A DNA stretch of 64,000 nucleotides, taken from positions 965 through 64,964 of the forward strand of contig JACOZN010000012.1 of assembly GCA_016181305.1 (NCBI GenBank). Direction: 5' to 3'. The translations under genes and the position numbers were made by a program. Of the stretch, positions 42,734-61,531 are shown one piece after another. The notes beneath the pieces are model-generated. The model ran no database searches and was not told the origin of the DNA. It worked only from the letters and a program-made list of their open reading frames with translations. The first letter of the stretch is position 1; every line of letters begins with the position of its first letter. This stretch comes from Candidatus Woesearchaeota archaeon. GTDB taxonomy: Archaea; Nanobdellota; Nanobdellia; Woesearchaeales; GW2011-AR4.

Positions 42734-44575
42734 ATGTATATATTCAAGCACAGGCAAAAACTGCGGAAAAAGAGGATTTACAGCAAAGCCCAGATGTCTG
42801 TATTCTGGATTATGGGCTTGGTTATGTTTATAGCGCTGGTTGCAGGCTTGTTCGTCTATAACGACTTAAGGACGGCTAAGATTAAGGAAGGGGCAAAAAA
42901 TGACCTGAGCTCGCAGGCAGAGGAAATTGAGAAATTTGTGAACGACTGCATAAGAAAAGAGGCGTTTGAGGGATTGAAAAGGCTTGGGCAGACTGGCGGC
43001 TATCTTGAAATCCCGAAAATCATAAGCTTCAAGGGCACAGGCTATTGGTACCTGGATGAGGTTAACATACAGCCAATCCTCAACCAGACTCAGGAAAGGC
43101 TGCTCGAGCACATCAGTGCAAACGTGCCAAAATGCGTTGACGACGAAAGAATAAAAGAGCTTGGGTTTGCAGTCCAAAAAGGGGCTATAAAAACGACAAT
43201 CGAGTTCGGAAATGCCGATGTGACAGTGAAGATAGAGTATCCAATAAGGCTTGAGAGGGAAAAATTCACAAAGGATTTCTCTGGTTTTTTCAACTCTTTT
43301 GACATAAGGTACAGGGCTGTGTTCGAGGCTGCCACAGAGGTGAATGAAAGGCTTTTCGACGCTGACTTCGACATCAAGAACCCATTGAAAAAATTGGATT
43401 ACCTGAAAAGCCTTGAATTTGATGTGTCATACAAGAGCCCTGAAACTGATGTAATGGTGTTTACAGTAACAGACAAGAAATCAATTCTGCCGACAAATGA
43501 GCTTTATACTTTCAGCTTTGCTGCGAGGCTCGGCACCTCTGACTTGAAGAAGTTCATTGACTTGCAGGACAACAGCGCCACAAATCCGGTATTTTTGCCC
43601 TACACAATTTATTCTGTTGACAAGAAGGCTCAGCTTGACATTTCATCAGGAACAACAATAAGCCTTGAAGGGCAGCCTGTAAAGGCGATAAGCGTTGAGC
43701 AAGCTTATCCAAATGAAGTCACAACAAAAGACGTCCCTGTCTACAAGAAAAACGACAAGATAATGCAAAAGCAGGACATAATCTATGTGATAGACAATCC
43801 CATATATACCTTTGAGCCTTCCGGGATTTTATTCAACAAGCACCAAAAGCTGGCTTTGTATTATGAGGATGAAATAAAGGCGAGCAAAGGCGTTGGAATT
43901 CTAATGGGAAAGAATGGCTTCTGGATTCCTATTCCGTCAAAGCACGAGCCTGAGCAGAAAAGGGTGTTTGCCAGCATACTAGGGTTTACTGAATTTACTG
44001 CTGTGAACTGCGCATCGCAAAAACTCAAGACAACAATTGCAGAGCATTTCTTTGAGCCAGCCCCTCCATGTTTTATATTCGGGGCATTGAGCATAATTGC
44101 TGTATTGGCAGTGGTTGTTACGCTTATCGGTGGTGGGCCTGTATTATTCGGACTTTTTGGCGGTCCAACTGCTGCTGAAGGTGGAATTATAAGTGCCATA
44201 GGCCAAGGCTTTATTAGCGGTTCAGAAGCTATCGGCATCGGCGGCATTACTTTTGGTGCTACCGCTGCCACAGTTGGAACTGTCCTTACAGGGCTAACAT
44301 TAGTTACTATAGCAGGCTCTATACTCGGAGCCACAACAGACGTCTTCTACGAAAAATCCCCTGAAAACTGCGAAACTTTCTATCCAGTCTGCGACCAGAA
44401 CATAAATATAGAAAAAGAGCTGAAAGACGGCACAGGGGACTGCATTCCGGACAGCGGCGCAAGGGTTGCCGCAGGAGCGCCTGCAAACGTATGCGCCCAG
44501 GTGAAGAAATGCGACTCATTGAGCAAGTTCTTCTGCAAGCCGTGCAGCGTGAAGTGTAGTGCGCAGTTTTATTGA
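42734..44575 (+). CDS. KxQ-anchor / GGY-domain family protein (613 aa), paralog 3, with Gly-rich membrane region and Cys-rich tail
   Basis: ...IYSKAQMSVFWIMGLVMFIALVAGLFVY, CIRKEAFEGLKRLGQTGGY, VPKCVDD, VTVKIEYPIRL, FDIRYRAVFEAA. The C-terminus has a ~90 aa G/A/I/T-rich hydrophobic stretch followed by 8 Cys in the last ~70 aa. Confidence 0.8.
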   Translation: MYIFKHRQKLRKKRIYSKAQMSVFWIMGLVMFIALVAGLFVYNDLRTAKIKEGAKNDLSSQAEEIEKFVNDCIRKEAFEGLKRLGQTGGYLEIPKIISFKGTGYWYLDEVNIQPILNQTQERLLEHISANVPKCVDDERIKELGFAVQKGAIKTTIEFGNADVTVKIEYPIRLEREKFTKDFSGFFNSFDIRYRAVFEAATEVNERLFDADFDIKNPLKKLDYLKSLEFDVSYKSPETDVMVFTVTDKKSILPTNELYTFSFAARLGTSDLKKFIDLQDNSATNPVFLPYTIYSVDKKAQLDISSGTTISLEGQPVKAISVEQAYPNEVTTKDVPVYKKNDKIMQKQDIIYVIDNPIYTFEPSGILFNKHQKLALYYEDEIKASKGVGILMGKNGFWIPIPSKHEPEQKRVFASILGFTEFTAVNCASQKLKTTIAEHFFEPAPPCFIFGALSIIAVLAVVVTLIGGGPVLFGLFGGPTAAEGGIISAIGQGFISGSEAIGIGGITFGATAATVGTVLTGLTLVTIAGSILGATTDVFYEKSPENCETFYPVCDQNINIEKELKDGTGDCIPDSGARVAAGAPANVCAQVKKCDSLSKFFCKPCSVKCSAQFY

Positions 44576-46149
44576 GGGTTATTTTTAAAATGATTGTAGT
44601 AAGCCATAACTTCTTTTACATAATCCCTCGTAGTGTAACCTGGCACAATAACTACATCAGGAACTGAGCGCTCTTTGGCGACTCTGGTGGGGCCAGCCTT
44701 GCTGTAACCTGCAGCAATCAATTGTAAGTTCCCGTTAAAGCGTTCTGTAAGATATGTGAGGACAGCCATTGATGCATCAGTAGCTGTATACTTATCCTTT
44801 TTAACTTCATTCCAGTCGTATGTCCCATATACTTCCCTTTGATTGACATCCTTCACAGCTATGTAGTTTAAGTGTCCTATCCCGTGATTTCCTTGGCTTG
44901 GTCCTACATAAGGGTCAAATTTTGACTCAACTGCAAATATGGCTTTGACAAGATTTTTATCAACTTTTAAGCTGGACAATTCTATCCTATTCACAATATC
45001 CTGATTTTTCGGAATATTTGTTTTTTCAACTAATCCTATATCCCTCTTAAACCTCTCACTTTCTCCCGATGGTATTTCAGCGTTGAACTTTACGCCCCTA
45101 ATTACAACTTCAGCATTTGTATTTGACTCAGTATTAGGCGGAATATTGGGATTCCATTTTACATTCGGCACCCTTATCTGCACATTCGAGTCTTTGTATT
45201 GAATCTCTGCATCGCCGTTTTTCAGGGCATTTAATAGCTTGATATTCTGGTCCGCATTATTTGCGCTCCTGTATGTTTCTCCCGGGAAAGTTTCTTCATA
45301 TTTTATTTTCCTCGCCTCGAAATTATTGCTGCCATAGCCTGCCTCCTTGAATACATCAGATATGGATTTGTCAGTGCCCAAAACAACAAAATTCCTTACA
45401 GGAGTAAGTGTATAGCCCAAATCATCCTCGACAAAAGAAAACCTGACCGGGCGGTTTTCAGCCATCAATTTAATGCCGTCAAATATCGTCTCTTCCTGCC
45501 GCGGCAGCACATATATATTGCTGTTTGCAAAGTCTATATAACGTTTATCGGATTTGCTAAATTTGTATCCTTTGCCGTCAAAGACTATGTCTGCTCCGGG
45601 AAGAGTTGTTGTCTTAGAATCGCCCTCAAACCTTATTGTATTTGTCTTTTCGTTATAGAAAAACTTGGTGTTTTTCCCTATTTTCTGCTCTAAAACCCTG
45701 GAGTTGTCGCCAGCAACGCCGCTAATCTCGCTGGAATATTGGTTGTATTTAACCCCATTGGAGTTTTCTATGGGCAAGCCATTAAACGGGCTATTTTTAA
45801 TTGAAAACACACCCTTTTCAATTGAAAAGCCGTCCAGTTGTTTGGAGTATGTGCCCTTGCCGGTAAACACTGCTCCGCTGTCTTTAAGAGTGGCAGTTGC
45901 ATCAACAACGCGAACCTTGCCGAGAAAATCAGCTGGAATTTCAGCAGAGCTTCCGAAAGTTAATGTCAGGGAATTTGATTCTTTATTGTAGTAAAAACTA
46001 TCGCCCACTATTTTAATGCCTATATTTTTATCAATCCATTTTGCCCTGTCTTCTTGTGTTCCACACTTGTCATAGTCGTCGCATGCGCCCTGCACAAAGG
46101 CACCAAGCGCAAAAAGTGCAATAATCCAGACCAAAATTATTTTTTTCAT
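44569..46149 (-). CDS. secreted protein with C-terminal SLT (lytic transglycosylase / GH23-like) domain
   Basis: I prefer the ATG at 46149 (MKKIILVWIIALFALGAFVQGA signal peptide), 1 nt after the stop of the 256-aa gene. The C-terminus reads LVKAIFAVESKFDP...GNHGIGHL...AVLTYL...LIAAGYSKAGPTRV, which fits the SLT pattern (A-I-x-x-x-E-S, G-L-M-Q-like, Y-L, A-Y-N-A-G). Confidence 0.7.
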   Translation of the reverse strand: MKKIILVWIIALFALGAFVQGACDDYDKCGTQEDRAKWIDKNIGIKIVGDSFYYNKESNSLTLTFGSSAEIPADFLGKVRVVDATATLKDSGAVFTGKGTYSKQLDGFSIEKGVFSIKNSPFNGLPIENSNGVKYNQYSSEISGVAGDNSRVLEQKIGKNTKFFYNEKTNTIRFEGDSKTTTLPGADIVFDGKGYKFSKSDKRYIDFANSNIYVLPRQEETIFDGIKLMAENRPVRFSFVEDDLGYTLTPVRNFVVLGTDKSISDVFKEAGYGSNNFEARKIKYEETFPGETYRSANNADQNIKLLNALKNGDAEIQYKDSNVQIRVPNVKWNPNIPPNTESNTNAEVVIRGVKFNAEIPSGESERFKRDIGLVEKTNIPKNQDIVNRIELSSLKVDKNLVKAIFAVESKFDPYVGPSQGNHGIGHLNYIAVKDVNQREVYGTYDWNEVKKDKYTATDASMAVLTYLTERFNGNLQLIAAGYSKAGPTRVAKERSVPDVVIVPGYTTRDYVKEVMAYYNHFKNNPQ

Positions 46150-46150
46150 C

Positions 46151-46921
46151 CTATTTTTCCATCGCAAAGCTGAATATGTAGTCATCTCCATCCACTTTAG
46201 TTGCATTGTCAAAAATAGTGAAAATCATAGAATCTTTCTCTGAAACAACATCAATAAAGACATTGTTTTCCGAGGCCAAGTCGATGAGGCAGTCTATGCA
46301 CAAGGCTCCATTGTCCCTTATTTTGCCTTCTGTTATGTTTGAAGCTAGGATGTATATTGTATTGAGCCTGACAGGGACCTCCGCCCTGAAATAGGGTATT
46401 TGAGTTTCTGCGCCTTCCTTGGAAATTGTAATTGGATAATTAATGTCAACTAAAACGCTTTCAGTGCCTATGGTTGATTTGACAGAGATGGCGCCTCCTT
46501 CAATCCTTGCCCCCTGGAAGTCCTGAAGCCCCTCAATGCATTGCGGCAGCTGCTCCGCTACATAGCCCGATATCTGCATCTCGACAGAGCTTCTTGAAGG
46601 CATTGTATTCCTGCTTTGATAGGCATAGTAAGGCACCTCGTCGTAGAAATAGGTTAGCTTTGGTTCAGGCACCTTGTAGTATCCCCCGTACAATCCCGTG
46701 TAAACAACTGAGTCTTTGGCTGTTTCACTCACGCAGAAATCAATGTTCAGCTTGGCAGGCAGCAGCGAGGAGGGCGCGTCTGCAACATTGACAATTTCGC
46801 TTGCTGCTTCAGCCTCCGCCCTTGTTTTGTTTATAGCAACATAGCTGATGAAAGAAGCAGCTATCACCAGCACTAGCCCAAATATAAGAAACAATGCAAC
46901 TTGGGTTTTTTTGCTCGCCAT
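46151..46921 (-). CDS. KxQ-anchor / GGY-domain family protein (256 aa), minimal paralog 4
   Basis: MASKKTQVALFLIFGLVLVIAASFISY, CVSETAKDSVVYTGLYGGY, LPQCIEGLQDF, VLVDINYPITI, VPVRLNTIYILA. It consists of little more than the shared domain. Confidence 0.75.
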   Translation of the reverse strand: MASKKTQVALFLIFGLVLVIAASFISYVAINKTRAEAEAASEIVNVADAPSSLLPAKLNIDFCVSETAKDSVVYTGLYGGYYKVPEPKLTYFYDEVPYYAYQSRNTMPSRSSVEMQISGYVAEQLPQCIEGLQDFQGARIEGGAISVKSTIGTESVLVDINYPITISKEGAETQIPYFRAEVPVRLNTIYILASNITEGKIRDNGALCIDCLIDLASENNVFIDVVSEKDSMIFTIFDNATKVDGDDYIFSFAMEK

Positions 46922-47515
46922 CTTTTTTGCCCGTTATTTCTTTATCTTAAATCATACTTAATAAATCTTTTGCGGAGCCCTGATTTTGCCGTATTTGCCT
47001 AAGAAATTTTATATAAAATATATAATGTAAAAACAAAAGCTTTAAATATAACATCGTTATAAGTAGCTCAATAAAATGGCAAATGGCATAAAGTGGATGG
47101 AAGTGAGTATTCTAAGTCTAATTAGGACTATCCACACAACAGCTACAACAGCTGTGATGTGCTGATTGCCAATTTTAACCTTAATTTTCTAAAACAAGAT
47201 TGGAGGTGTTAAAATTGGTACAAAAGACTAAACTAAGCAATGCGGAAAAGAAAGATTTTGAAGAATTCCTTCAAAATTTGTTGGTAGTAGACTTCAACAA
47301 CCGAAATGAAGAATCGAAATACAAGTGAAAATGGGATATAAACATTTAAATATCCACTGGCTTGACAGCCATTTCATGATTAGGCAAGATTATTATAGAT
47401 GCTGTTATTGTTGCTAGTTCTGGTTGTTTTTACTTAAGCGAGGCGGTATATCCCTAAAAATATATCCAAATTATTTTTTCACAAAATTTGTGTTTTCCAA
47501 AAAAATGGTTTTATT

Positions 47516-48277
47516 ATGAAAACAAAATATTATACTCAAAAATTGAATTTTTATGAATTGGTAGGTATAATTTTAGGAGATGGCTGCATCTACAATTACC
47601 CCACTAAAGGGATATACGGGCTTGAAATTTCAGGAAATGCTGAAGAAGATCATGAATATTTTTTGAAAATTTCAAGTTTTATTGAAAATTTAATCGGCAA
47701 AAAACCTAGGATAGTTACAAAAATTGAAAAACTTGGCAAAAGTCTAAGGCTGGTAGTTTATAGCAAAAAATTTGCTGAATACCTAATTAATGATATCGGC
47801 ATAACGTGTCAAAATAAAACTTTTGAGGGGGCTATCCCGAGAAGGTTTTTAGATTGGAAATATATCCGACATATTATAAGGGGACTCTTTGAAACGGATG
47901 GTTCGTTATATTTTTCAAAAGTTAAAGGGGTTTCTCGCTATCCAAGAGTCGAAATTAAAACCTCCAGCAAGATACTTGCAAATCAAATCATTGATATTTT
48001 AGAGCAAAAATCTTTTAAACCACATAAAAGAACCAATACATCGGATAGCACAATTGGAATATACGTGAGTGGCCCAATAATGTTAGAAAAATGGGTTCAA
48101 GAAATCGGGTTTGGAAGCAATAAAAATTTAAGTAAATACTTAGTTTGGAAGAAACTAGGATATTACATACCTAAAACCTCCTTAAATGAGAGAATAAACA
48201 TATTAAATGATGAAAATCATATTCAAGCGAGGGTGCCCAAGCGGCTAATTGTTACAGCAGAATGTACAAGTCGGTAG
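47516..48277 (+). CDS. LAGLIDADG-family homing endonuclease, double-motif, free-standing
   Basis: Two LAGLIDADG-type motifs (LVGIILGDGCI and IIRGLFETDGSLY). The ORF looks AT-richer than its surroundings by eye. Its last 51 nt run into the tRNA-Cys 5' exon and first intron. Confidence 0.8.
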   Translation: MKTKYYTQKLNFYELVGIILGDGCIYNYPTKGIYGLEISGNAEEDHEYFLKISSFIENLIGKKPRIVTKIEKLGKSLRLVVYSKKFAEYLINDIGITCQNKTFEGAIPRRFLDWKYIRHIIRGLFETDGSLYFSKVKGVSRYPRVEIKTSSKILANQIIDILEQKSFKPHKRTNTSDSTIGIYVSGPIMLEKWVQEIGFGSNKNLSKYLVWKKLGYYIPKTSLNERINILNDENHIQARVPKRLIVTAECTSR

Positions 48278-48371
48278 GGGAGCGGCTGCAAAGCAGCCAT
48301 ACGAGCTTTTCAAGCGATGAAATGATTGCGCCAAGCCCGCTTTATCATGGGTTCGAGTCCCATCCCTCGCT
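48227..48371 (+). tRNA. tRNA-Cys(GCA) with two introns (48242..48270 in D-loop; 48292..48335 at 37/38)
   Basis: Hand fold: acceptor GCGAGGG/CCCTCGC, U8, D-stem CCC/GGG with A13-A22, D-loop AGUCGGU, anticodon stem AGCGG/CCGCU, loop CUGCAA+C, variable UUAUC, T-arm AUGGG-UUCGAGU-CCCAU, discriminator U73. Lengths are 72 nt mature plus 29 plus 44, which equals the 145 nt span. Confidence 0.7.
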
Positions 48372-48376
48372 TTTTT
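48371..48376 (+). terminator. oligo-T tract after tRNA
   Basis: TTTTTT starts at the discriminator position. This resembles the oligo-T signal typical of archaeal termination. Confidence 0.4.
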
Positions 48377-48417
48377 AATAAAAACAATTAAAAACATGCA
48401 AAATAATTTCTTGTAAA

Positions 48418-49818
48418 ATGCCGTTAAAACTTTACAATACCTTAACAAGAAAAAAGGAAGTGTTCAAGCCGATAAAAAATAAGGCTGTCCATCTCTATTC
48501 CTGCGGGCCAACGGTTTATGACTATGCCCACATCGGCAATTTCAGGGCTTATGTCTGCAGCGACATTCTTAAGCGCTATCTAAAATACAAGGGCTTCAAG
48601 GTAAAGCATGTGATGAATATAACAGATGTAGATGACAAGACAATAAAAGGCGCAAATCAGCAAGGAATTTCTTTGAAGGAGTATACAAAAAAATTTGAAG
48701 AAGCTTTCCTGAATGACATTGGGGCATTGAACATTGACAAAGCAGAAATTTTTCCAAAAGCGACCGAGCACATAAAAGATATGGTTGTAATAGTAAAAAA
48801 ATTATTAAAAAATAATGTTGCCTATAAAAGCGATGACGGCAGTATTTATTACGATATTTCAAAATTTAAAAATTATGGAAAACTGTCTCATGCAAAAATA
48901 AAGTCGCTGAAAGAAGGCGCAAGGGTAAGGCAGGATTCTTATGAAAAAGAGGAAGCTCACGATTTCGCATTGTGGAAGGCTTATGACAAGGAAGATGGAA
49001 ATATTTTCTGGAACACGGAGGTTGGCAAAGGGCGCCCGGGATGGCACATTGAATGCAGTGCAATGTCGATGAAGTATCTTGGCAGTCATTTTGATATCCA
49101 TGCAGGCGGGGTTGACTTGGTTTTCCCGCATCACGAAAATGAGATTGCCCAAAGCGAGGCTTTTACAGGAAAAAAATTCGTGAATTACTGGTTCCACAAC
49201 GAGCACCTGCTTGTTGGCGGACACAAGATGTCTAAGTCTTTGGGGAATTTCTACACTTTGAGGGACTTGCTGCAAAAAGGCTACAATCCAAAGGCAATAA
49301 GGTATCTTTTGCTTTCTGTCCATTACAGACAACAGCTCAATTTCACAGAAGAGGCTGTAAAAGCGGCGGAAAATTCCATTCGAAGATTGGAAGATTTTAT
49401 GATTAAATTAAAGGAGCTTAAAAGTGATATAAAAAATGAAAACATTGAAAAATTAATAAAAAAGACAAAAAAAGAATTTGAAAAAGAGATGGACGATGAC
49501 TTGAACATTTCAAATGCGCTGGCCCATGTTTTTGAATTTGTGAAAGAAATTAATACATTGATGATGGAAGGCAAAATAGGCAAGGGTGATGCAAAAAAAA
49601 TTATGAGTTTTGTGGGGGTTTTTGATAAAGTCCTTGGCGTTCTCGAAAAAAAAGAAGAAAAACTAAGCACTGAACTGAAAAAATTAATTGATGAGCGGGA
49701 GAAGGCAAGAAAGGAAAAAAATTATGAGAAAGCGGACAGAATAAGGCAGCAGTTAAGTGAAAAAGGGATAATTCTTGAGGATACAAGGGATGGTGTTAGG
49801 TGGAAGAAGGCAGGTTAA
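48418..49818 (+). CDS. cysS: cysteinyl-tRNA synthetase
   Basis: HIGN (HIGH-type) and KMSKSLGN motifs, with CGPTVYD and WHIECSAM strings typical of CysRS. Confidence 0.95.
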   Translation: MPLKLYNTLTRKKEVFKPIKNKAVHLYSCGPTVYDYAHIGNFRAYVCSDILKRYLKYKGFKVKHVMNITDVDDKTIKGANQQGISLKEYTKKFEEAFLNDIGALNIDKAEIFPKATEHIKDMVVIVKKLLKNNVAYKSDDGSIYYDISKFKNYGKLSHAKIKSLKEGARVRQDSYEKEEAHDFALWKAYDKEDGNIFWNTEVGKGRPGWHIECSAMSMKYLGSHFDIHAGGVDLVFPHHENEIAQSEAFTGKKFVNYWFHNEHLLVGGHKMSKSLGNFYTLRDLLQKGYNPKAIRYLLLSVHYRQQLNFTEEAVKAAENSIRRLEDFMIKLKELKSDIKNENIEKLIKKTKKEFEKEMDDDLNISNALAHVFEFVKEINTLMMEGKIGKGDAKKIMSFVGVFDKVLGVLEKKEEKLSTELKKLIDEREKARKEKNYEKADRIRQQLSEKGIILEDTRDGVRWKKAG

Positions 49819-53752: not shown

Positions 53753-54589
53753 TTATCTATTCTGATAATCTCCAAATCTAGCTCTTGTCTCTTTAACATA
53801 ATTGTAGGTTTCATTCACTATAAAGCTTATTGCTTCAGTCGCCTGCTTTTCATTCAAGTCTTTTGTCATAACGCAGTAGAATACCCTGCTTTCGTCAATG
53901 TAAATTATGCCGCAGTCATGAAAATACCTGTAACCGACATAATATGTCTCGCCGAACTTATGGGCTATAGCAATATCGCTGGGTATGTTAGCGGCTTTTT
54001 TAACATCAAAGGCTGAATCAGAAAGGAATGACAGCAGGCGCTCTGAATTCTCGGGCTCAAGAACCGTGGAAAAATACAGGCTGGAGAATAAGGTAGACAT
54101 TGCCTTCGGGCTTAATAAATTTGGGCGCTCTGCTGTTTCGCCTTCCTCAAAGTCTGCATTAACATCAATGCCGTAATAGTCCAGAACCAGCTGAAAATCC
54201 CCAGTATCGATTTGATGGAGCAATACCCTATAAGCCGTATTGTCTGACTCTTTCAGCATTTTTTCAAGCAAAACTCCGACAGGCAGCTGCTTTTCCTTGG
54301 TTTTGTAAAGCTCTCCAAAGCTGCTTGTCCTGTCCGAATCATCAATCTTAAGCAGGGTATCAAAGCTCAGCTCGCCGCTTTCAATCTTTTTTGTTATCAG
54401 GATTGCAACAGGCAGCTTAATCAGGCTTGCCGGGAAGAATCCTGTCCTTTCATTTATTCCCATGTATGCGCCGTTGCGGAAGTTCTCAACATATACTGAT
54501 ACGTTAAGGTTATTTTTTTTGATATAATCATTGATTTCTTCTTTCAATGGCGCAAAGCTCACTATCAGAAAACTCTTTGGCTCAAGCAA
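53753..54589 (-). CDS. serine hydrolase of class A beta-lactamase / PBP-like fold
   Basis: S-x-x-K (PASLIK), S-D-N (ESDNTA) and a K-x-G-like motif (HKFGE) occur in the canonical order. The listed start is non-ATG, so the N-terminus is uncertain. Confidence 0.6.
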   Translation of the reverse strand: MLEPKSFLIVSFAPLKEEINDYIKKNNLNVSVYVENFRNGAYMGINERTGFFPASLIKLPVAILITKKIESGELSFDTLLKIDDSDRTSSFGELYKTKEKQLPVGVLLEKMLKESDNTAYRVLLHQIDTGDFQLVLDYYGIDVNADFEEGETAERPNLLSPKAMSTLFSSLYFSTVLEPENSERLLSFLSDSAFDVKKAANIPSDIAIAHKFGETYYVGYRYFHDCGIIYIDESRVFYCVMTKDLNEKQATEAISFIVNETYNYVKETRARFGDYQNR

Positions 54590-59025: not shown

Positions 59026-60765
59026 ATGGAAGCAATACAAAGAATCAGGAAAAGGGACGGCACGGTAGTTGTATTTGACCAGAACAAAATAACAAATGCC
59101 ATATTCAAGGCAGCCCAGTCAGTAGGCGGCAAGGACAGGAAAATTGCACAGCAGCTGAGCGACAGGGTAGTTGAAGAGCTTGAAAAGCTTGGAAAAACAG
59201 CCCCTTCTGTTGAGGAAATCCAGGACATTGTGGAAAAGGTCCTTATTGGGCAGGGTCATGCCTCTACAGCAAAAGCTTACATTCTTTACAGGCAGCAAAG
59301 GTCCGAAGTCAGGAAAGAAAAGCAGCTGGTTCTGGAAAAGGAAGAGATTGACGAGGTTGACAAAAGGTTTGATGTAAACGCGTTGAGGGTTTTAAAGGCA
59401 AGATACCTGAGAAAAGATGCGACTGGAAAATTGACAGAAACCCCAAAGCAGCTGTTCACAAGGGTTGCTGTCCATGCTGCACTGCCTGACTTGTTCTATG
59501 ACAAGAGAGTTTTTGATATCGAAAGCAGGCAGCCGGAAAACGAGCCGGAAAGCTTCAGCCCTGTTGCAAACGAAGATAAATACAGCATTGGCAATTACAT
59601 TCTGAACAGGTATCATCTCGAAGCGCTGAAGAGAATGTACGACAGGTTCAACGACAACAAACAAATGCGTGTTTCATGGAGCAAGTTCTTTGACATGATT
59701 AAAAAAGGTGAATTCAACAATTACGAGAACAATGTTGACGAGCTTTACAATCTGATGACTCACAAGCTCTTCATGCCAAACACCCCTGCAATTGCAAATT
59801 TTGGCAATCCCTTGGGCATGGGATCCGCTTGTTTTGTGCTCCGTGTGCCAGATTCAATCGAAGGTATAATGGAAGCCCTAAAGAGCACCGCAATTGTTTT
59901 TAAAGCTGGTGGCGGAATGGGCTACAACTTCAGTGAATTAAGACCAGAAGGAGACTTTGTGTCCTCAACAGGAGGAGTAGCTTCAGGACCATTGAGCTTT
60001 ATGCGATTGTTTGACACAATGACAGAGGTGATAAAACAAGGCGGCATCAGGAGAGGCGCAAATATGGGCATTTTAAACTCCAACCATCCTGACATTGAGA
60101 AATTTATAACAGCAAAGGACGGCAACAAGGCATTGAGAAACTTCAACATAAGCGTATTGATAATGTCTGACTTTTGGGACTATTATGGCAAGAACGAGCC
60201 ATATCCATTGGTTAACCCGAAAGACGGCAAGGTTGTAAAGTATGTAAATCCAAGAGTGCTGTTTGACAAGATTGTCTACCAGGCATGGGAATCAGCAGAG
60301 CCCGGGGTCATCTTTTTTGACAAGGTGAATGAGTACAACCCTTTCTTTGAGCATCTTGGACCAATTGTAACAACTAATCCCTGCGGAGAAGTTTTATTGT
60401 ATCCAAACGAGCCATGCAACCTAGGCTCAATCAATGTGTGGGCTTTTGCAAGGACTGACTATGACGGAAACAATTATGTTGACTGGGAAAGCTTAAAGAT
60501 TGTTGTAAAAAGTTGCACAAGGTTCCTCGACAATGTCATTGATGTCAATAACTTCCCGTTAAAAGCAATTGAGGGGATGAGCTTAGCCACAAGAAAAATT
60601 GGGCTGGGGGTTATGGGTGTTGGCGACTTGCTTTACGAATTAAGATTGCCTTATAATACAGAGGAAGGCAGGAAGTTCATGGAGCAGTTGATTGAATTCA
60701 TAGCCTATTGGAGCAAAGTTGAAAGCATTGAGCTTGCAAAAGCAAGTAAGGGGGGCTTACCTTAA
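59026..60765 (+). CDS. nrdJ: adenosylcobalamin-dependent (class II) ribonucleotide reductase, N-terminal fragment with ATP-cone
   Basis: ATP-cone (IRKRDGTVVVFDQNKITNAI), then NTPAIANFG, CFVL, GGGMGYNFSELRPEGD, TNPCGE. It terminates just after a G6 run. Confidence 0.85.
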   Translation: MEAIQRIRKRDGTVVVFDQNKITNAIFKAAQSVGGKDRKIAQQLSDRVVEELEKLGKTAPSVEEIQDIVEKVLIGQGHASTAKAYILYRQQRSEVRKEKQLVLEKEEIDEVDKRFDVNALRVLKARYLRKDATGKLTETPKQLFTRVAVHAALPDLFYDKRVFDIESRQPENEPESFSPVANEDKYSIGNYILNRYHLEALKRMYDRFNDNKQMRVSWSKFFDMIKKGEFNNYENNVDELYNLMTHKLFMPNTPAIANFGNPLGMGSACFVLRVPDSIEGIMEALKSTAIVFKAGGGMGYNFSELRPEGDFVSSTGGVASGPLSFMRLFDTMTEVIKQGGIRRGANMGILNSNHPDIEKFITAKDGNKALRNFNISVLIMSDFWDYYGKNEPYPLVNPKDGKVVKYVNPRVLFDKIVYQAWESAEPGVIFFDKVNEYNPFFEHLGPIVTTNPCGEVLLYPNEPCNLGSINVWAFARTDYDGNNYVDWESLKIVVKSCTRFLDNVIDVNNFPLKAIEGMSLATRKIGLGVMGVGDLLYELRLPYNTEEGRKFMEQLIEFIAYWSKVESIELAKASKGGLP

Positions 60766-61531
60766 GGATGAGCAGCACTTTGACTGGGGCAGGCTCGCTG
60801 AAGATGTAAAAAAGTATGGAATAAGGAATGGCTACACAACAATAATTGCGCCGACAGGCAGCATTTCAATGATTGCAGGCTGCTCGTCAGGCATGGAGCC
60901 AGTCTACTCACTTGTTTTTGAGAAAAATGTCAAGGTTGGAAGCTTTTATTATGTGGACCCTGCTGCTGAAAAAGTGCTGAGGGAAGAAGGCCTGCTCAAC
61001 GACAAGCTGATGGAAGACATCAACGAGCACAAAGGCAGCATACAGATGATTGAGTACGTGCCTGAAACTATAAGAAGGGCATTGGTGACAGCAATGGATA
61101 TAACTCCTGAAGAGCATATAAGGGCGCTTGCCTCATTCCAGAAATGGGTTGACTCAAGCATTTCAAAAACAAACAACTTCCCTGCAGACGCAACTCTGGA
61201 GCACATGAGGGACAGCTACATTTTGGCTTACAAGCTTGGCTGCAAGGACGTAACTGTCTTCAGAGACAGCAGCATAAAGGATCAGGTGCTTGTTGCCCCA
61301 AAAGCCAAGGAGAAGAAGGAAGAATCCAAAATGGAAGTTGACATAAAGCCTGAAATGAAAAAAATGATAAAGGAATCCGAAAGCGGGCTGGTTTTTGCTA
61401 ACGGCAACGGAAGTGAGGCAAAGCCCACATCAAAATATACAATAAAGAACTGCCCTGAATGCGGCACAAAACTTGAGTTAAAAGAAGGCTGCCTGCACTG
61501 CCCGGGCTGCGGCTGGGGCTTGTGCATTTAA
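60719..61531 (+). CDS. nrdJ: class II ribonucleotide reductase, C-terminal fragment (continues previous ORF after a frameshift near 60750-60755)
   Basis: GIRNGYTTIIAPTGSISMIAGCSSGMEPVYSLVF, KTNNFP, and a C-terminal Zn ribbon CPECG...CPGCG. The true continuation starts at ...GAYLKDEQ. Confidence 0.8.
   Translation: MKALSLQKQVRGAYLKDEQHFDWGRLAEDVKKYGIRNGYTTIIAPTGSISMIAGCSSGMEPVYSLVFEKNVKVGSFYYVDPAAEKVLREEGLLNDKLMEDINEHKGSIQMIEYVPETIRRALVTAMDITPEEHIRALASFQKWVDSSISKTNNFPADATLEHMRDSYILAYKLGCKDVTVFRDSSIKDQVLVAPKAKEKKEESKMEVDIKPEMKKMIKESESGLVFANGNGSEAKPTSKYTIKNCPECGTKLELKEGCLHCPGCGWGLCI

What the first reader, a model, noticed from the sequence alone, without database searches (positions are those of the whole stretch)
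48227..48371. tRNA-Cys(GCA) with two introns, one in the D-loop, directly upstream of cysS
Removing 29 nt (48242-48270) and 44 nt (48292-48335) yields a fully canonical 72-nt tRNA. It has the GCA anticodon in a CUGCAAC loop, an A13-A22 mismatch and a U73 discriminator. U73 and GCA are the classical CysRS identity elements. The gene ends 47 nt before the cysS start codon, an unusual pairing of a tRNA with its cognate synthetase. There are caveats. The D-loop intron boundary is ambiguous over 4 nt because CAAG is repeated at both junctions. Position 38 could be C or A depending on a 1-nt shift. I could not draw a canonical bulge-helix-bulge by eye. Instead, a perfect alternative hairpin GGCTGC-aaa-GCAGCC (48284-48298) pairs the anticodon region with the intron 5' end. 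The first intron also duplicates a D-loop-like string (AAGCGGCTAA versus AAGTCGGTA).
Basis: partly seen in the sequence, partly recalled or inferred. Interest (0 to 1): 0.65.

Follow-up and report, generated by a model that had tools for sequence, protein, structure and literature searches.

The report
Two-intron archaeal tRNA-Cys gene
This is a real cysteine tRNA gene of a tiny DPANN (Woesearchaeota-like) archaeon, interrupted by two short protein-spliced introns; this kind of gene is known, but here a homing-endonuclease gene runs into it and a cysteine-rich mini-gene lies upstream.

Summary
The finding is essentially right, with one error. Window 48227-48371 (+) encodes tRNA-Cys(GCA) with two introns, 47 nt upstream of cysS. 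Intron 1 is 48248-48275 (28 nt, position 21/22), not 48242-48270.

The corrected boundaries give the D-arm seen in relatives that lack this intron. They also give a central 4/4-bp helix with a 3-nt 5' bulge, a relaxed bulge-helix-bulge (HBh') motif. Nine distinct versions of this intron keep that geometry through compensatory changes.

Relatives show a mosaic of tRNA-Cys introns at five sites (8/9, 21/22, 30/31, 37/38, 59/60), up to four per gene. Intron-less alleles confirm both junctions. Unaided ARAGORN and Rfam miss the gene.

It is a new member of a known kind: a multi-intron archaeal pre-tRNA.

The surroundings are less ordinary:
- An intact LAGLIDADG homing-endonuclease ORF (47516-48277) reads through exon 1 and stops at the end of intron 1. 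It sits between an orphan copy of the tRNA 5' end and the intact gene.
- A promoter plus a leaderless polycysteine mini-ORF (47376-47417) precedes the unit. In relatives such mini-ORFs precede tRNA-Cys, cysS, and cysE-like and cysK-like genes.

The parts
48227..48371 (+). tRNA-Cys(GCA) gene: three exons and two introns. No CCA is encoded. U73 is the discriminator and a T-run follows.
   Evidence: ARAGORN calls tRNA-Cys after in-silico splicing. Orthologues are called directly in relatives. The intron-less orthologue L088 matches Rfam tRNA RF00005 at 65.4 bits.
48227..48247 (+). Exon 1, tRNA nt 1-21: GCGAGGGTGCCCAAGCGGCTA (acceptor 5' strand, U8 G9, D-stem 5' strand, D-loop).
   Evidence: Spliced alignment to relatives. 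Identical in L003, L006, L008, L011 and L020.
48248..48275 (+). Intron 1, 28 nt, at position 21/22. Relaxed bulge-helix-bulge (HBh'). Central helix 48242-48245 (CGGC) pairs with 48270-48273 (GUCG). The 5' bulge is UA|A (48246-48248). The inner helix is 48249-48256 with 48263-48269. The 3' site GU|A (48274-48276) lies in a 3x3 internal loop closed by the D-stem.
   Evidence: Register test gives central helix 4/4 and inner helix 4 bp, plus 3 more after a 1-nt bulge. The MFE fold shows the same helices. Nine distinct homologous introns keep the geometry with compensatory changes. Intron-less alleles exist.
48276..48291 (+). Exon 2, tRNA nt 22-37: AGGGGAGCGGCTGCAA (D-stem 3' strand, nt 26, anticodon stem 5' strand, C32 U33 G34 C35 A36 A37).
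48292..48335 (+). Intron 2, 44 nt, at the canonical position 37/38. The 5' bulge is AA|A. The inner helix is GCAG:UUGC. The central helix has only G34:C and C35:G here. An internal stem-loop covaries. There is a conserved GAUGA box.
   Evidence: ARAGORN places the intron at 37/38. Register test. Alignment A1 and pair counts. Intron-less alleles L010, L085, L092 and L097.
48336..48371 (+). Exon 3, tRNA nt 38-73: anticodon stem 3' strand, variable loop UUAUC, T-arm AUGGG-UUCGAGU-CCCAU, acceptor 3' strand, U73.
47516..48277 (+). Intact two-motif LAGLIDADG homing-endonuclease ORF (253 aa). Its last 17 codons are read from tRNA exon 1 and intron 1. The stop codon TAG (48275-48277) spans the 3' splice junction.
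   Evidence: Pfam LAGLIDADG_3 1e-6. Translation shows LGDG and ETDG motifs. About 80 homologues, most ending in translated tRNA-Cys 5' sequence.
47431..47443 (+). Orphan copy of the pre-tRNA leader end plus tRNA nt 1-6 (TACTTAAGCGAGG). It is an imperfect direct repeat of 48220-48232, 789 nt downstream, and marks the left edge of the endonuclease cassette.
   Evidence: the repeat finder family D9. The sequence upstream of it is homologous to the pre-tRNA leader of endonuclease-less relatives L010, L011 and L020. No bulge-helix-bulge pairing is possible because the two copies are identical, not complementary.
47376..47417 (+). Leaderless polycysteine mini-ORF MIRQDYYRCCYCC*. It is followed by a conserved T-rich motif.
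   Evidence: Such ORFs number 34 on the cysS strand against 5 on the opposite strand across 91 loci.
47345..47352 (+). TATA-like box TTTAAATA, at a fixed 23-nt distance from the mini-ORF ATG in the 11 relatives aligned.
   Evidence: The promoter function is inferred, not shown.
48418..49818 (+). cysS, cysteinyl-tRNA synthetase (466 aa).
   Evidence: Pfam tRNA-synt_1e 7e-119, DALR_2, CysS_C. 84% identity to a Woesearchaeota genome.

Best explanation
Window 48227-48371 is the functional tRNA-Cys(GCA) gene of a Woesearchaeota-like DPANN archaeon, interrupted by two protein-spliced archaeal introns.

Proposed pathway. The precursor folds so that each exon-intron junction lies in a 3-nt bulge next to a 4-bp helix. 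The tRNA splicing endonuclease cuts between the 2nd and 3rd bulge nucleotides, at 48247|48248, 48275|48276, 48291|48292 and 48335|48336. An RNA ligase joins the exons into a 73-nt tRNA. CCA is added afterwards. The CysRS encoded 47 nt downstream charges the tRNA using U73 and GCA.

Shown here: the gene, the exon boundaries, the motif geometry and its conservation. Inferred: the enzymes, the order of cutting and actual expression.

Intron 1 belongs to a widespread family of 21/22 introns of tRNA-Cys. Intron 2 is the canonical 37/38 intron.

The gene now lies downstream of a homing-endonuclease cassette of about 0.79 kb. That cassette was inserted at the very 5' end of the tRNA and left an orphan copy of the tRNA start upstream.
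For: 1. In-silico splicing gives a canonical tRNA-Cys.
2. Each intron has natural intron-less alleles in relatives, with exactly the predicted junctions.
3. Using one fixed geometric rule, the splice sites inferred from exon alignment coincide with a 4/4-bp central helix plus an inner helix for almost every non-canonical intron in 20 or more loci. This includes window intron 1. The chance rate is about 4e-4 per candidate site.
4. Nine distinct 21/22 introns all keep the 4/4 central helix, the NA|A and NN|A bulges, and an inner helix of at least 7 bp with many compensatory changes.
5. The exons are identical in the window, L006 and L081, while the intron loops differ (GCAGAA, GCGTAT, GTTTAA) and cysS is only 73% identical to L006.
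6. The rule matches the published definition: a 4-bp helix, 3-nt bulges, and the first two anticodon nucleotides inside the helix (PMC4090602).
7. tRNA-Cys next to cysS is the conserved arrangement in the clade.
Against: There are no RNA data. No splicing endonuclease or ligase gene was found among the window ORFs scanned, so the enzyme type is unknown.

Intron 2 has only 2 of 4 central-helix pairs in this window, and a competing 6-bp hairpin exists.

The 3' splice site of intron 1 lies in a 3x3 internal loop rather than a true bulge. It therefore needs an endonuclease with relaxed specificity.

The promoter for the tRNA is uncertain, because the endonuclease cassette separates the ancestral promoter from the gene.

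Another tRNA-Cys copy elsewhere in the genome cannot be excluded.
Confidence: 0.9

Rival explanations
1. The gene is a pseudogene: a tRNA-Cys inactivated by two insertions and by the endonuclease cassette.
For: Standard detectors find nothing in the raw sequence. A mobile-element gene overlaps the 5' end. The ancestral promoter is displaced by about 0.8 kb.
Against: The exons are perfectly conserved across diverged genomes, while intron loops vary and intron stems covary. Both insertions sit in splice-competent motifs. No other tRNA of any kind is found in the 64-kb window. The same interrupted architecture is the only tRNA-Cys seen next to cysS in many relatives.
Confidence: 0.05
2. One reading: intron 1 is 48242-48270 (or one of its 4-nt-shift equivalents), giving a 72-nt tRNA with D-loop AGUCGGU.
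For: That splice also yields a cloverleaf that ARAGORN accepts.
Against: There is no bulge-helix-bulge at any of the five equivalent positions: central helix at most 3/4, inner helix 0. Relatives lacking the intron carry AAGCGGCTAA, not AAGTCGGTA. In L006 and L081 the alternative D-loop would read UCGAU and lose G19.
Confidence: 0.03
3. Origin hypothesis; it is compatible with the main explanation. Intron 1 came in with, or is kept by, the endonuclease element. The element would carry its own copy of the tRNA 5' part including the intron, and the intron would break the endonuclease target. This resembles the mobile-element model proposed for Caldiarchaeum tRNA-Thr.
For: The order is orphan 5' fragment, then mobile-element gene on the same strand, then an intact tRNA with an extra intron. 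That matches the Caldiarchaeum case (PMC3293823). In the cysS-linked and endonuclease-linked samples, the 21/22 intron was seen only in endonuclease-carrying loci: the window, L006, L081, L083 and L090. Orphan 5' copies co-occur 6 out of 6 with the 8/9 intron in L002, L004, L009, L010, L013 and L028.
Against: A pattern scan of metagenome contigs found the 21/22 intron in five distinct loci with no endonuclease upstream: L093, L094, L095, L096/L098 and L097. Endonuclease-carrying loci also exist without it: L085, L087, L088 and L091. The linkage is therefore not strict, and my first count was biased by how the loci were sampled.
Confidence: 0.2
4. The 0.79-kb endonuclease cassette is itself a giant spliced intron, with the orphan GCGAGG as the true exon 1.
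For: Archaeal rRNA introns can carry LAGLIDADG genes (own knowledge; Woesearchaeota rRNA group I introns with LAGLIDADG are listed in PMC6125680). The orphan copy would give the same mature sequence.
Against: The two junctions are identical rather than complementary, so no central helix can form (sequence). There is no group I intron or other Rfam match in 46800-48500, even at E<=10. Other endonuclease-carrying loci have no orphan copy at all: L081, L085 and L087.
Confidence: 0.02

Closest known systems
Multi-intron archaeal pre-tRNAs with non-canonical bulge-helix-bulge (hBHBh' or HBh') introns. Examples are Thermoproteales tRNAs and Methanopyrus kandleri pre-tRNA-Glu(UUC), which has one D-loop HBh' intron and one canonical intron (PMC5829648, PMC4090602).
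   Same: Short introns defined by a 4-bp helix with 3-nt bulges. One intron is at 37/38 and one is in the D-loop region with a relaxed 3' side. Removal restores a normal cloverleaf. Detectors built for single introns miss the gene.
   Different: The host is a Woesearchaeota-like DPANN archaeon. The same tRNA in close relatives shows presence/absence at five sites and up to four introns per gene. The published maximum I found is three (PMC4090602; also own knowledge).
Caldiarchaeum subterraneum tRNA-Thr(GGU) locus: tRNA 5' fragment, 1.8-kb mobile element with a recombinase gene, then a reconstituted tRNA with an extra 24/25 intron (Sugahara et al. 2012, PMC3293823).
   Same: [quoted passage not shown]
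   Different: Here the element encodes a LAGLIDADG homing endonuclease, not an integrase-type recombinase. It is only about 0.79 kb, and its ORF runs into the tRNA. The repeat is only 8-13 nt. The extra intron also occurs without the element.
Free-standing and intron-associated LAGLIDADG homing endonucleases. These include archaeal rRNA-intron enzymes such as I-DmoI and phage 'collaborative homing' of a free-standing endonuclease with a nearby intron (own knowledge).
   Same: A two-motif LAGLIDADG ORF sits next to a highly conserved RNA gene that carries an intron within about 20 bp of the ORF end.
   Different: The ORF lies outside the intron and upstream of the tRNA. There is no sequence match to any solved structure. 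Target site and activity are unknown.
Polycysteine leaderless short ORFs that attenuate cysteine-biosynthesis operons in mycobacteria (Canestrari et al., bioRxiv 10.1101/834739).
   Same: A leaderless mini-ORF ending in a run of Cys codons lies upstream of cysteine-related genes.
   Different: The domain is Archaea. The genes downstream include a tRNA-Cys gene and cysS. No terminator/antiterminator fold was found. No experimental data exist.

Membership tests
Archaeal bulge-helix-bulge tRNA intron | Removing the insert restores a canonical cloverleaf tRNA. | tested here: met
   ARAGORN calls tRNA-Cys(GCA) after removal of 48248-48275 and 48292-48335.
Archaeal bulge-helix-bulge tRNA intron | A central 4-bp helix flanked by two 3-nt bulges, with cleavage between bulge nt 2 and 3 on each strand. 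| tested here: inconclusive
   Intron 1 has a 4/4 helix and a clean 5' bulge, but its 3' site is in a 3x3 internal loop (relaxed HBh'). Intron 2 has both bulges and the outer and inner helices, but only 2 of 4 central pairs here, against 3 of 4 in most relatives and 4 of 4 in L007. The strict motif is not met. The relaxed forms described in the literature are met.
Archaeal bulge-helix-bulge tRNA intron | The structure is supported by covariation among homologues. | tested here: met
   Intron 1: nine versions with compensatory changes throughout the inner helix and G:U to G:C changes in the central helix. Intron 2: the internal stem covaries at 3 of 3 pairs, while the inner helix is invariant and so uninformative.
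Archaeal bulge-helix-bulge tRNA intron | Orthologous genes lacking the intron have the predicted exon junction. | tested here: met
   Site 21/22: L003, L008, L011, L020. Site 37/38: L010, L085, L092, L097.
Archaeal bulge-helix-bulge tRNA intron | The genome encodes a splicing endonuclease able to cut relaxed motifs, plus an RtcB-type ligase. | not testable with these tools
   Neither was found among the window ORFs scanned with Pfam. The rest of the genome is not available. The literature reports alpha4 EndA with an extra loop in DPANN lineages rich in disrupted tRNAs (PMC5829648).
Archaeal bulge-helix-bulge tRNA intron | The spliced RNA and excised intron are observed. | not testable with these tools
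   No transcript data.
tRNA-Cys | GCA anticodon in a 7-nt loop, U73 discriminator, and a cloverleaf with normal T-arm and D-arm. | tested here: met
   The orthologue L088 scores 65.4 bits on Rfam RF00005.
LAGLIDADG homing endonuclease | Two LAGLIDADG motifs with conserved acidic residues in a single chain of about 230-270 aa. | tested here: met
   Pfam PF14528 at 29.4 bits against a cut-off of 22.5. Motifs LVGIILGDGC and IIRGLFETDGS. The family has about 80 members of 213-280 aa.
LAGLIDADG homing endonuclease | Site-specific cleavage of the allele that lacks the element, and homing. | not testable with these tools
   There is only indirect support: family members sit at the same place, immediately 5' of tRNA-Cys, in every context fetched.
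Leader-peptide (ribosome-sensing) attenuator | A short ORF with a run of codons for the regulated amino acid. | tested here: met
   MIRQDYYRCCYCC* in the window. In relatives the Cys runs are kept while TGT/TGC usage and the other residues vary.
Leader-peptide (ribosome-sensing) attenuator | The ORF lies upstream of genes for the same amino acid. | tested here: met
   In relatives it is followed by tRNA-Cys, cysS, CysE-like and CysK-like genes. CysE and CysK identity rests on my reading of sequence motifs and on Pfam Hexapep/PALP labels, not on a dedicated search.
Leader-peptide (ribosome-sensing) attenuator | Mutually exclusive terminator/antiterminator structures, or another defined read-out. 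| tested here: inconclusive
   RNAalifold finds only a weak hairpin (-3.4 kcal/mol) without covariation. A conserved T-rich motif follows the stop codon.

The most novel reading that the evidence does not exclude
The tRNA-Cys gene is part of an archaeal cysteine regulon controlled by leaderless polycysteine mini-ORFs. These would sense charged tRNA-Cys through ribosome progress. I found no archaeal precedent for this in the held literature. A LAGLIDADG endonuclease family that specialises on the 5' edge of tRNA-Cys inserts between sensor and tRNA. Such elements would be one route by which archaeal tRNA genes gain and shuffle their small introns.
Probability: 0.35. Interest if true: 0.75.

Novelty: new member of a known kind. 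Interest (0 to 1): 0.5.

Why it matters
The two-intron tRNA itself is ordinary biology for archaea. It is also a practical warning. ARAGORN without help missed it, and it mislabelled several orthologues as tRNA-Arg, Ile, Gln, His, Leu, Gly, Phe or a stop-codon (tta) tRNA. Genomes of this group will therefore appear to lack tRNA-Cys.

The gene family around it is more useful. One tRNA shows presence/absence of introns at five sites among close relatives, orphan 5' fragments, and an adjacent mobile endonuclease. That makes it a natural data set for the open question of how archaeal tRNA introns are gained and lost.

The polycysteine mini-ORFs, if regulatory, would extend leader-peptide sensing to Archaea and to a tRNA gene.

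Tried and rejected
- Plain ARAGORN, ARAGORN with its intron option, and Rfam at gathering and E<=10 thresholds found nothing on the raw window. The control shows that Rfam finds the intron-less orthologue and misses the intron-containing ones.
- The idea that the endonuclease cassette is a giant intron or a group I intron is rejected (sequence).
- I first hypothesised that the 21/22 intron occurs only with the endonuclease (5 of 5 against 0 of about 20). I tested this with a metagenome pattern scan and rejected it as a strict rule: five endonuclease-less loci carry the intron.
- No splicing endonuclease gene was found among the window ORFs scanned with Pfam.
- A sequence search of the endonuclease against solved structures found no match.
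- A conserved RNA fold between the mini-ORF and the tRNA was sought; only a weak hairpin appeared.
- I examined by hand whether the conserved GAUGA in intron 2 forms a K-turn or a box C'/D'-like guide for 2'-O-methylation of C32. It is possible (the 5th nt upstream of the NYGA box pairs with C32), but it was not tested and is left as speculation.
Full report
**What is in the sequence**

Window 48227-48371 reads GCGAGGGTGCCCAAGCGGCTA-[28 nt]-AGGGGAGCGGCTGCAA-[44 nt]-CCCGCTTTATCATGGGTTCGAGTCCCATCCCTCGCT, followed by a T-run. ARAGORN finds no tRNA anywhere in the 64-kb window, with or without its anticodon-loop intron option. Rfam finds nothing at the gathering threshold, or at E<=10 in 46800-48500.

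Once the first insert is deleted in silico, ARAGORN reports tRNA-Cys(GCA) with a 44-nt intron at 37/38. With both inserts deleted it reports a canonical cloverleaf. The downstream ORF 48418-49818 is cysS (Pfam tRNA-synt_1e, 7e-119). Its closest relatives are Woesearchaeota/Nanoarchaeota metagenome-assembled genomes, with 84% identity to the best one. The host is therefore a DPANN archaeon, where protein-spliced introns are expected.

**Comparative evidence**

I fetched 80 cysS loci. A tRNA-Cys gene lies upstream of cysS in many of them. A spliced alignment of the mature sequence to each locus shows the same tRNA interrupted at five alternative sites:
- 8/9: L002, L004, L009, L010, L013, L028.
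- 21/22: the window and L006.
- 30/31: ten loci.
- 37/38: all loci except L010.
- 59/60 in the T-loop: nine loci.

Four loci carry four introns each (L002, L004, L013, L028). Every site therefore has natural intron-less alleles, and these fix the exon junctions without reference to any structural model. L003, L008, L011 and L020 read CCC-AAGCGGCTAA-GGG in the D-arm. That places the window's first insert at 48248-48275 (equivalently 48249-48276), not at 48242-48270.

**Structural test**

I used the published definition of the motif: a 4-bp helix flanked by 3-nt bulges, with the first two anticodon nucleotides inside the helix (PMC4090602). From it I wrote one fixed register:
- Exon nt x-5..x-2 pair with intron nt n-5..n-2.
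- The bulges are x-1, x | i1 and n-1, n | y.
- The inner helix starts at i2:n-6.

Applied to the junctions from the exon alignment, almost every non-canonical intron in the family has a 4/4 central helix and an inner helix.

Window intron 1 scores a 4/4 central helix (C42 G43 G44 C45 with G70 U71 C72 G73; numbers are the last two digits of the window coordinates, 482xx). A motif of this quality occurs at about 4e-4 per candidate (start, end) pair in this window (436 in 10 kb x 108 lengths). The 3' splice site of intron 1 faces A39 A40 G41, so it lies in a 3x3 internal loop closed by the D-stem. This is the relaxed HBh' form.

I then collected further 21/22 introns. Some came from loci found through the endonuclease. 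Others came from a pattern scan of metagenome contigs. Nine distinct versions all keep the 4/4 helix, an NA|A 5' bulge and an NN|A 3' site. All have an inner helix of at least 7 bp that differs by many compensatory changes.

Window intron 2 has the 5' bulge AA|A, the inner helix GCAG:UUGC and the anticodon stem as outer helix. Only G34:C and C35:G pair in its central helix. Most relatives have three pairs there, and L007 has four. It has one pair that switches GC to UA together with the presence of the 30/31 intron. It is a conserved competing fold. An internal stem-loop of intron 2 covaries at 3 of 3 pairs.

**Is the gene functional?**

The exons are identical in the window, L006 and L081. 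The intron 1 loops differ (GCAGAA, GCGTAT, GTTTAA), and cysS is only 73% identical to L006. That is the pattern of a gene under selection, not of a pseudogene.

Rfam detects the intron-less orthologue L088 at 65.4 bits and misses the intron-containing L003, L010 and L085. This explains the negative results on the window.

No splicing endonuclease gene was found among the window ORFs scanned. The literature links DPANN alpha4 endonucleases carrying an extra loop with a marked increase in disrupted tRNA genes (PMC5829648). I could not test this for this genome.

ORF 47516-48277 (253 aa, intact) is a two-motif LAGLIDADG homing endonuclease. It reads through tRNA exon 1 and intron 1. Its TAG stop spans the 3' splice junction of intron 1.

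It has about 80 homologues at 40-84% identity. Most of their C-terminal tails are translations of a tRNA-Cys 5' end in one of several frames. Every context I fetched has the order mini-ORF, endonuclease, tRNA-Cys. This is a family that lives immediately 5' of tRNA-Cys.

In the window, the sequence up to 47443 is homologous to the pre-tRNA leader plus tRNA nt 1-6 of endonuclease-less relatives. A 13-nt imperfect direct repeat (47431-47443 and 48220-48232, spacing 789) brackets the cassette. The cassette cannot be a spliced intron, because its ends are identical rather than complementary. No group I or other RNA family matches it.

The layout resembles the Caldiarchaeum tRNA-Thr case: a 5' fragment, then a mobile element with a recombinase gene, then a reconstituted tRNA with an extra 24/25 intron. 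Its authors argued that the intron came with the element (PMC3293823).

I tested the analogous idea here. In my first sample the 21/22 intron occurred only in endonuclease-carrying loci. The metagenome scan then found five distinct loci with the intron and no endonuclease. Four endonuclease-carrying loci also lack the intron. The link is at best loose. I keep it as a minority hypothesis.

A related regularity remains unexplained. Orphan 5' copies without any endonuclease occur in exactly the six loci that carry the 8/9 intron.

**Upstream context: the polycysteine mini-ORF**

A TATA-like box (47345-47352) lies a fixed 23 nt before an ATG in the 11 relatives aligned. That ATG opens a 13-codon ORF, MIRQDYYRCCYCC* (47376-47417), followed by a conserved T-rich motif.

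Across 91 loci there are 34 short ORFs ending in a Cys run on the cysS strand and 5 on the other strand. These are not independent counts, but the sequences fall into several unrelated families. They precede tRNA-Cys or the endonuclease cassette, a protein of about 115 aa followed by cysS, CysE-like acetyltransferases, and CysK-like PLP enzymes.

The closest precedent I found is the polycysteine leaderless ORFs that attenuate cysteine operons in mycobacteria (bioRxiv 10.1101/834739). My literature searches returned no archaeal case. I found no convincing alternative RNA fold, so the read-out mechanism is open.

**Verdict**

The object is a new member of a well-known class: a multi-intron archaeal pre-tRNA with a relaxed non-canonical intron.

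What raises the interest above routine is the family context. One tRNA shows introns at five polymorphic sites and up to four introns per gene. A dedicated homing-endonuclease family sits at its 5' edge, with an orphan fragment in this window. A polycysteine mini-ORF system marks the cysteine genes of these archaea.

Noticed in passing
window 47345-47430: A TATA-like box at a fixed 23 nt from a leaderless 13-codon ORF, MIRQDYYRCCYCC* (47376-47417), followed by a conserved T-rich motif. In relatives, similar Cys-run mini-ORFs precede tRNA-Cys, cysS, and CysE-like and CysK-like genes (34 on the cysS strand against 5 on the other strand in 91 loci). This may be a cysteine-sensing leader peptide in Archaea.
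   Followed up: partly
window 47431-48277: A LAGLIDADG homing-endonuclease cassette (about 0.79 kb) inserted at the 5' edge of tRNA-Cys. It is bracketed by a 13-nt imperfect direct repeat that includes tRNA nt 1-6. The ORF has no stop codon of its own and terminates inside the tRNA gene. About 80 homologues sit in the same position relative to tRNA-Cys.
   Followed up: partly
L002 2141-2338, L004 2364-2612, L013 2103-2298, L028 2121-2349: tRNA-Cys genes with four introns (8/9, 30/31, 37/38, 59/60), each with a splice-competent motif. The maximum I know from the literature is three introns per tRNA gene.
   Followed up: partly
L002, L004, L009, L010, L013, L028, just upstream of the tRNA start: An orphan copy of GCGAGGG(T) lies 2-34 nt upstream of the real tRNA start. 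It occurs in exactly the six loci that carry the 8/9 intron. It could be a footprint of past element insertions or a tandem duplication. Unexplained.
   Followed up: no
L020 2792-2946: The closest endonuclease-less relative has an 82-nt 37/38 intron. It arose by a 38-nt tandem duplication that repeats part of exon 2, including the anticodon, plus the intron 5' half. This may be an assembly artefact or a real duplication that offers two alternative 5' splice sites.
   Followed up: no
window 48314-48330 (within intron 2): A GAUGA box is conserved in most of the 37/38 introns (RUGAUGA in several relatives). It is preceded by an NYGA box and a covarying stem. This resembles a K-turn or box C'/D' arrangement. 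The fifth nt upstream of the NYGA box pairs with C32, so a cis guide for 2'-O-methylation of C32 is conceivable.
   Followed up: no
L006, L007, L017, L081, L083, L085, L087, L091: ARAGORN with its intron option mislabels multi-intron tRNA-Cys genes as tRNA-Arg, Ile, Gln, His, Leu, Gly, Phe or a stop-codon (tta) tRNA. It treats one intron as anticodon-loop sequence. This is an annotation hazard for these genomes.
   Followed up: yes
window 59026-61531: The ribonucleotide reductase large subunit is split into two overlapping ORFs (59026-60765 and 60719-61531). Both match the barrel domain in consecutive parts. This could be a frameshift, a sequencing error or a real split.
   Followed up: no
window 44569-46212 (-) and 53753-54589 (-): An SLT lytic-transglycosylase domain protein and a beta-lactamase-family protein, both in an archaeal genome. 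These are peptidoglycan-related functions, possibly linked to an episymbiotic lifestyle on bacteria.
   Followed up: no
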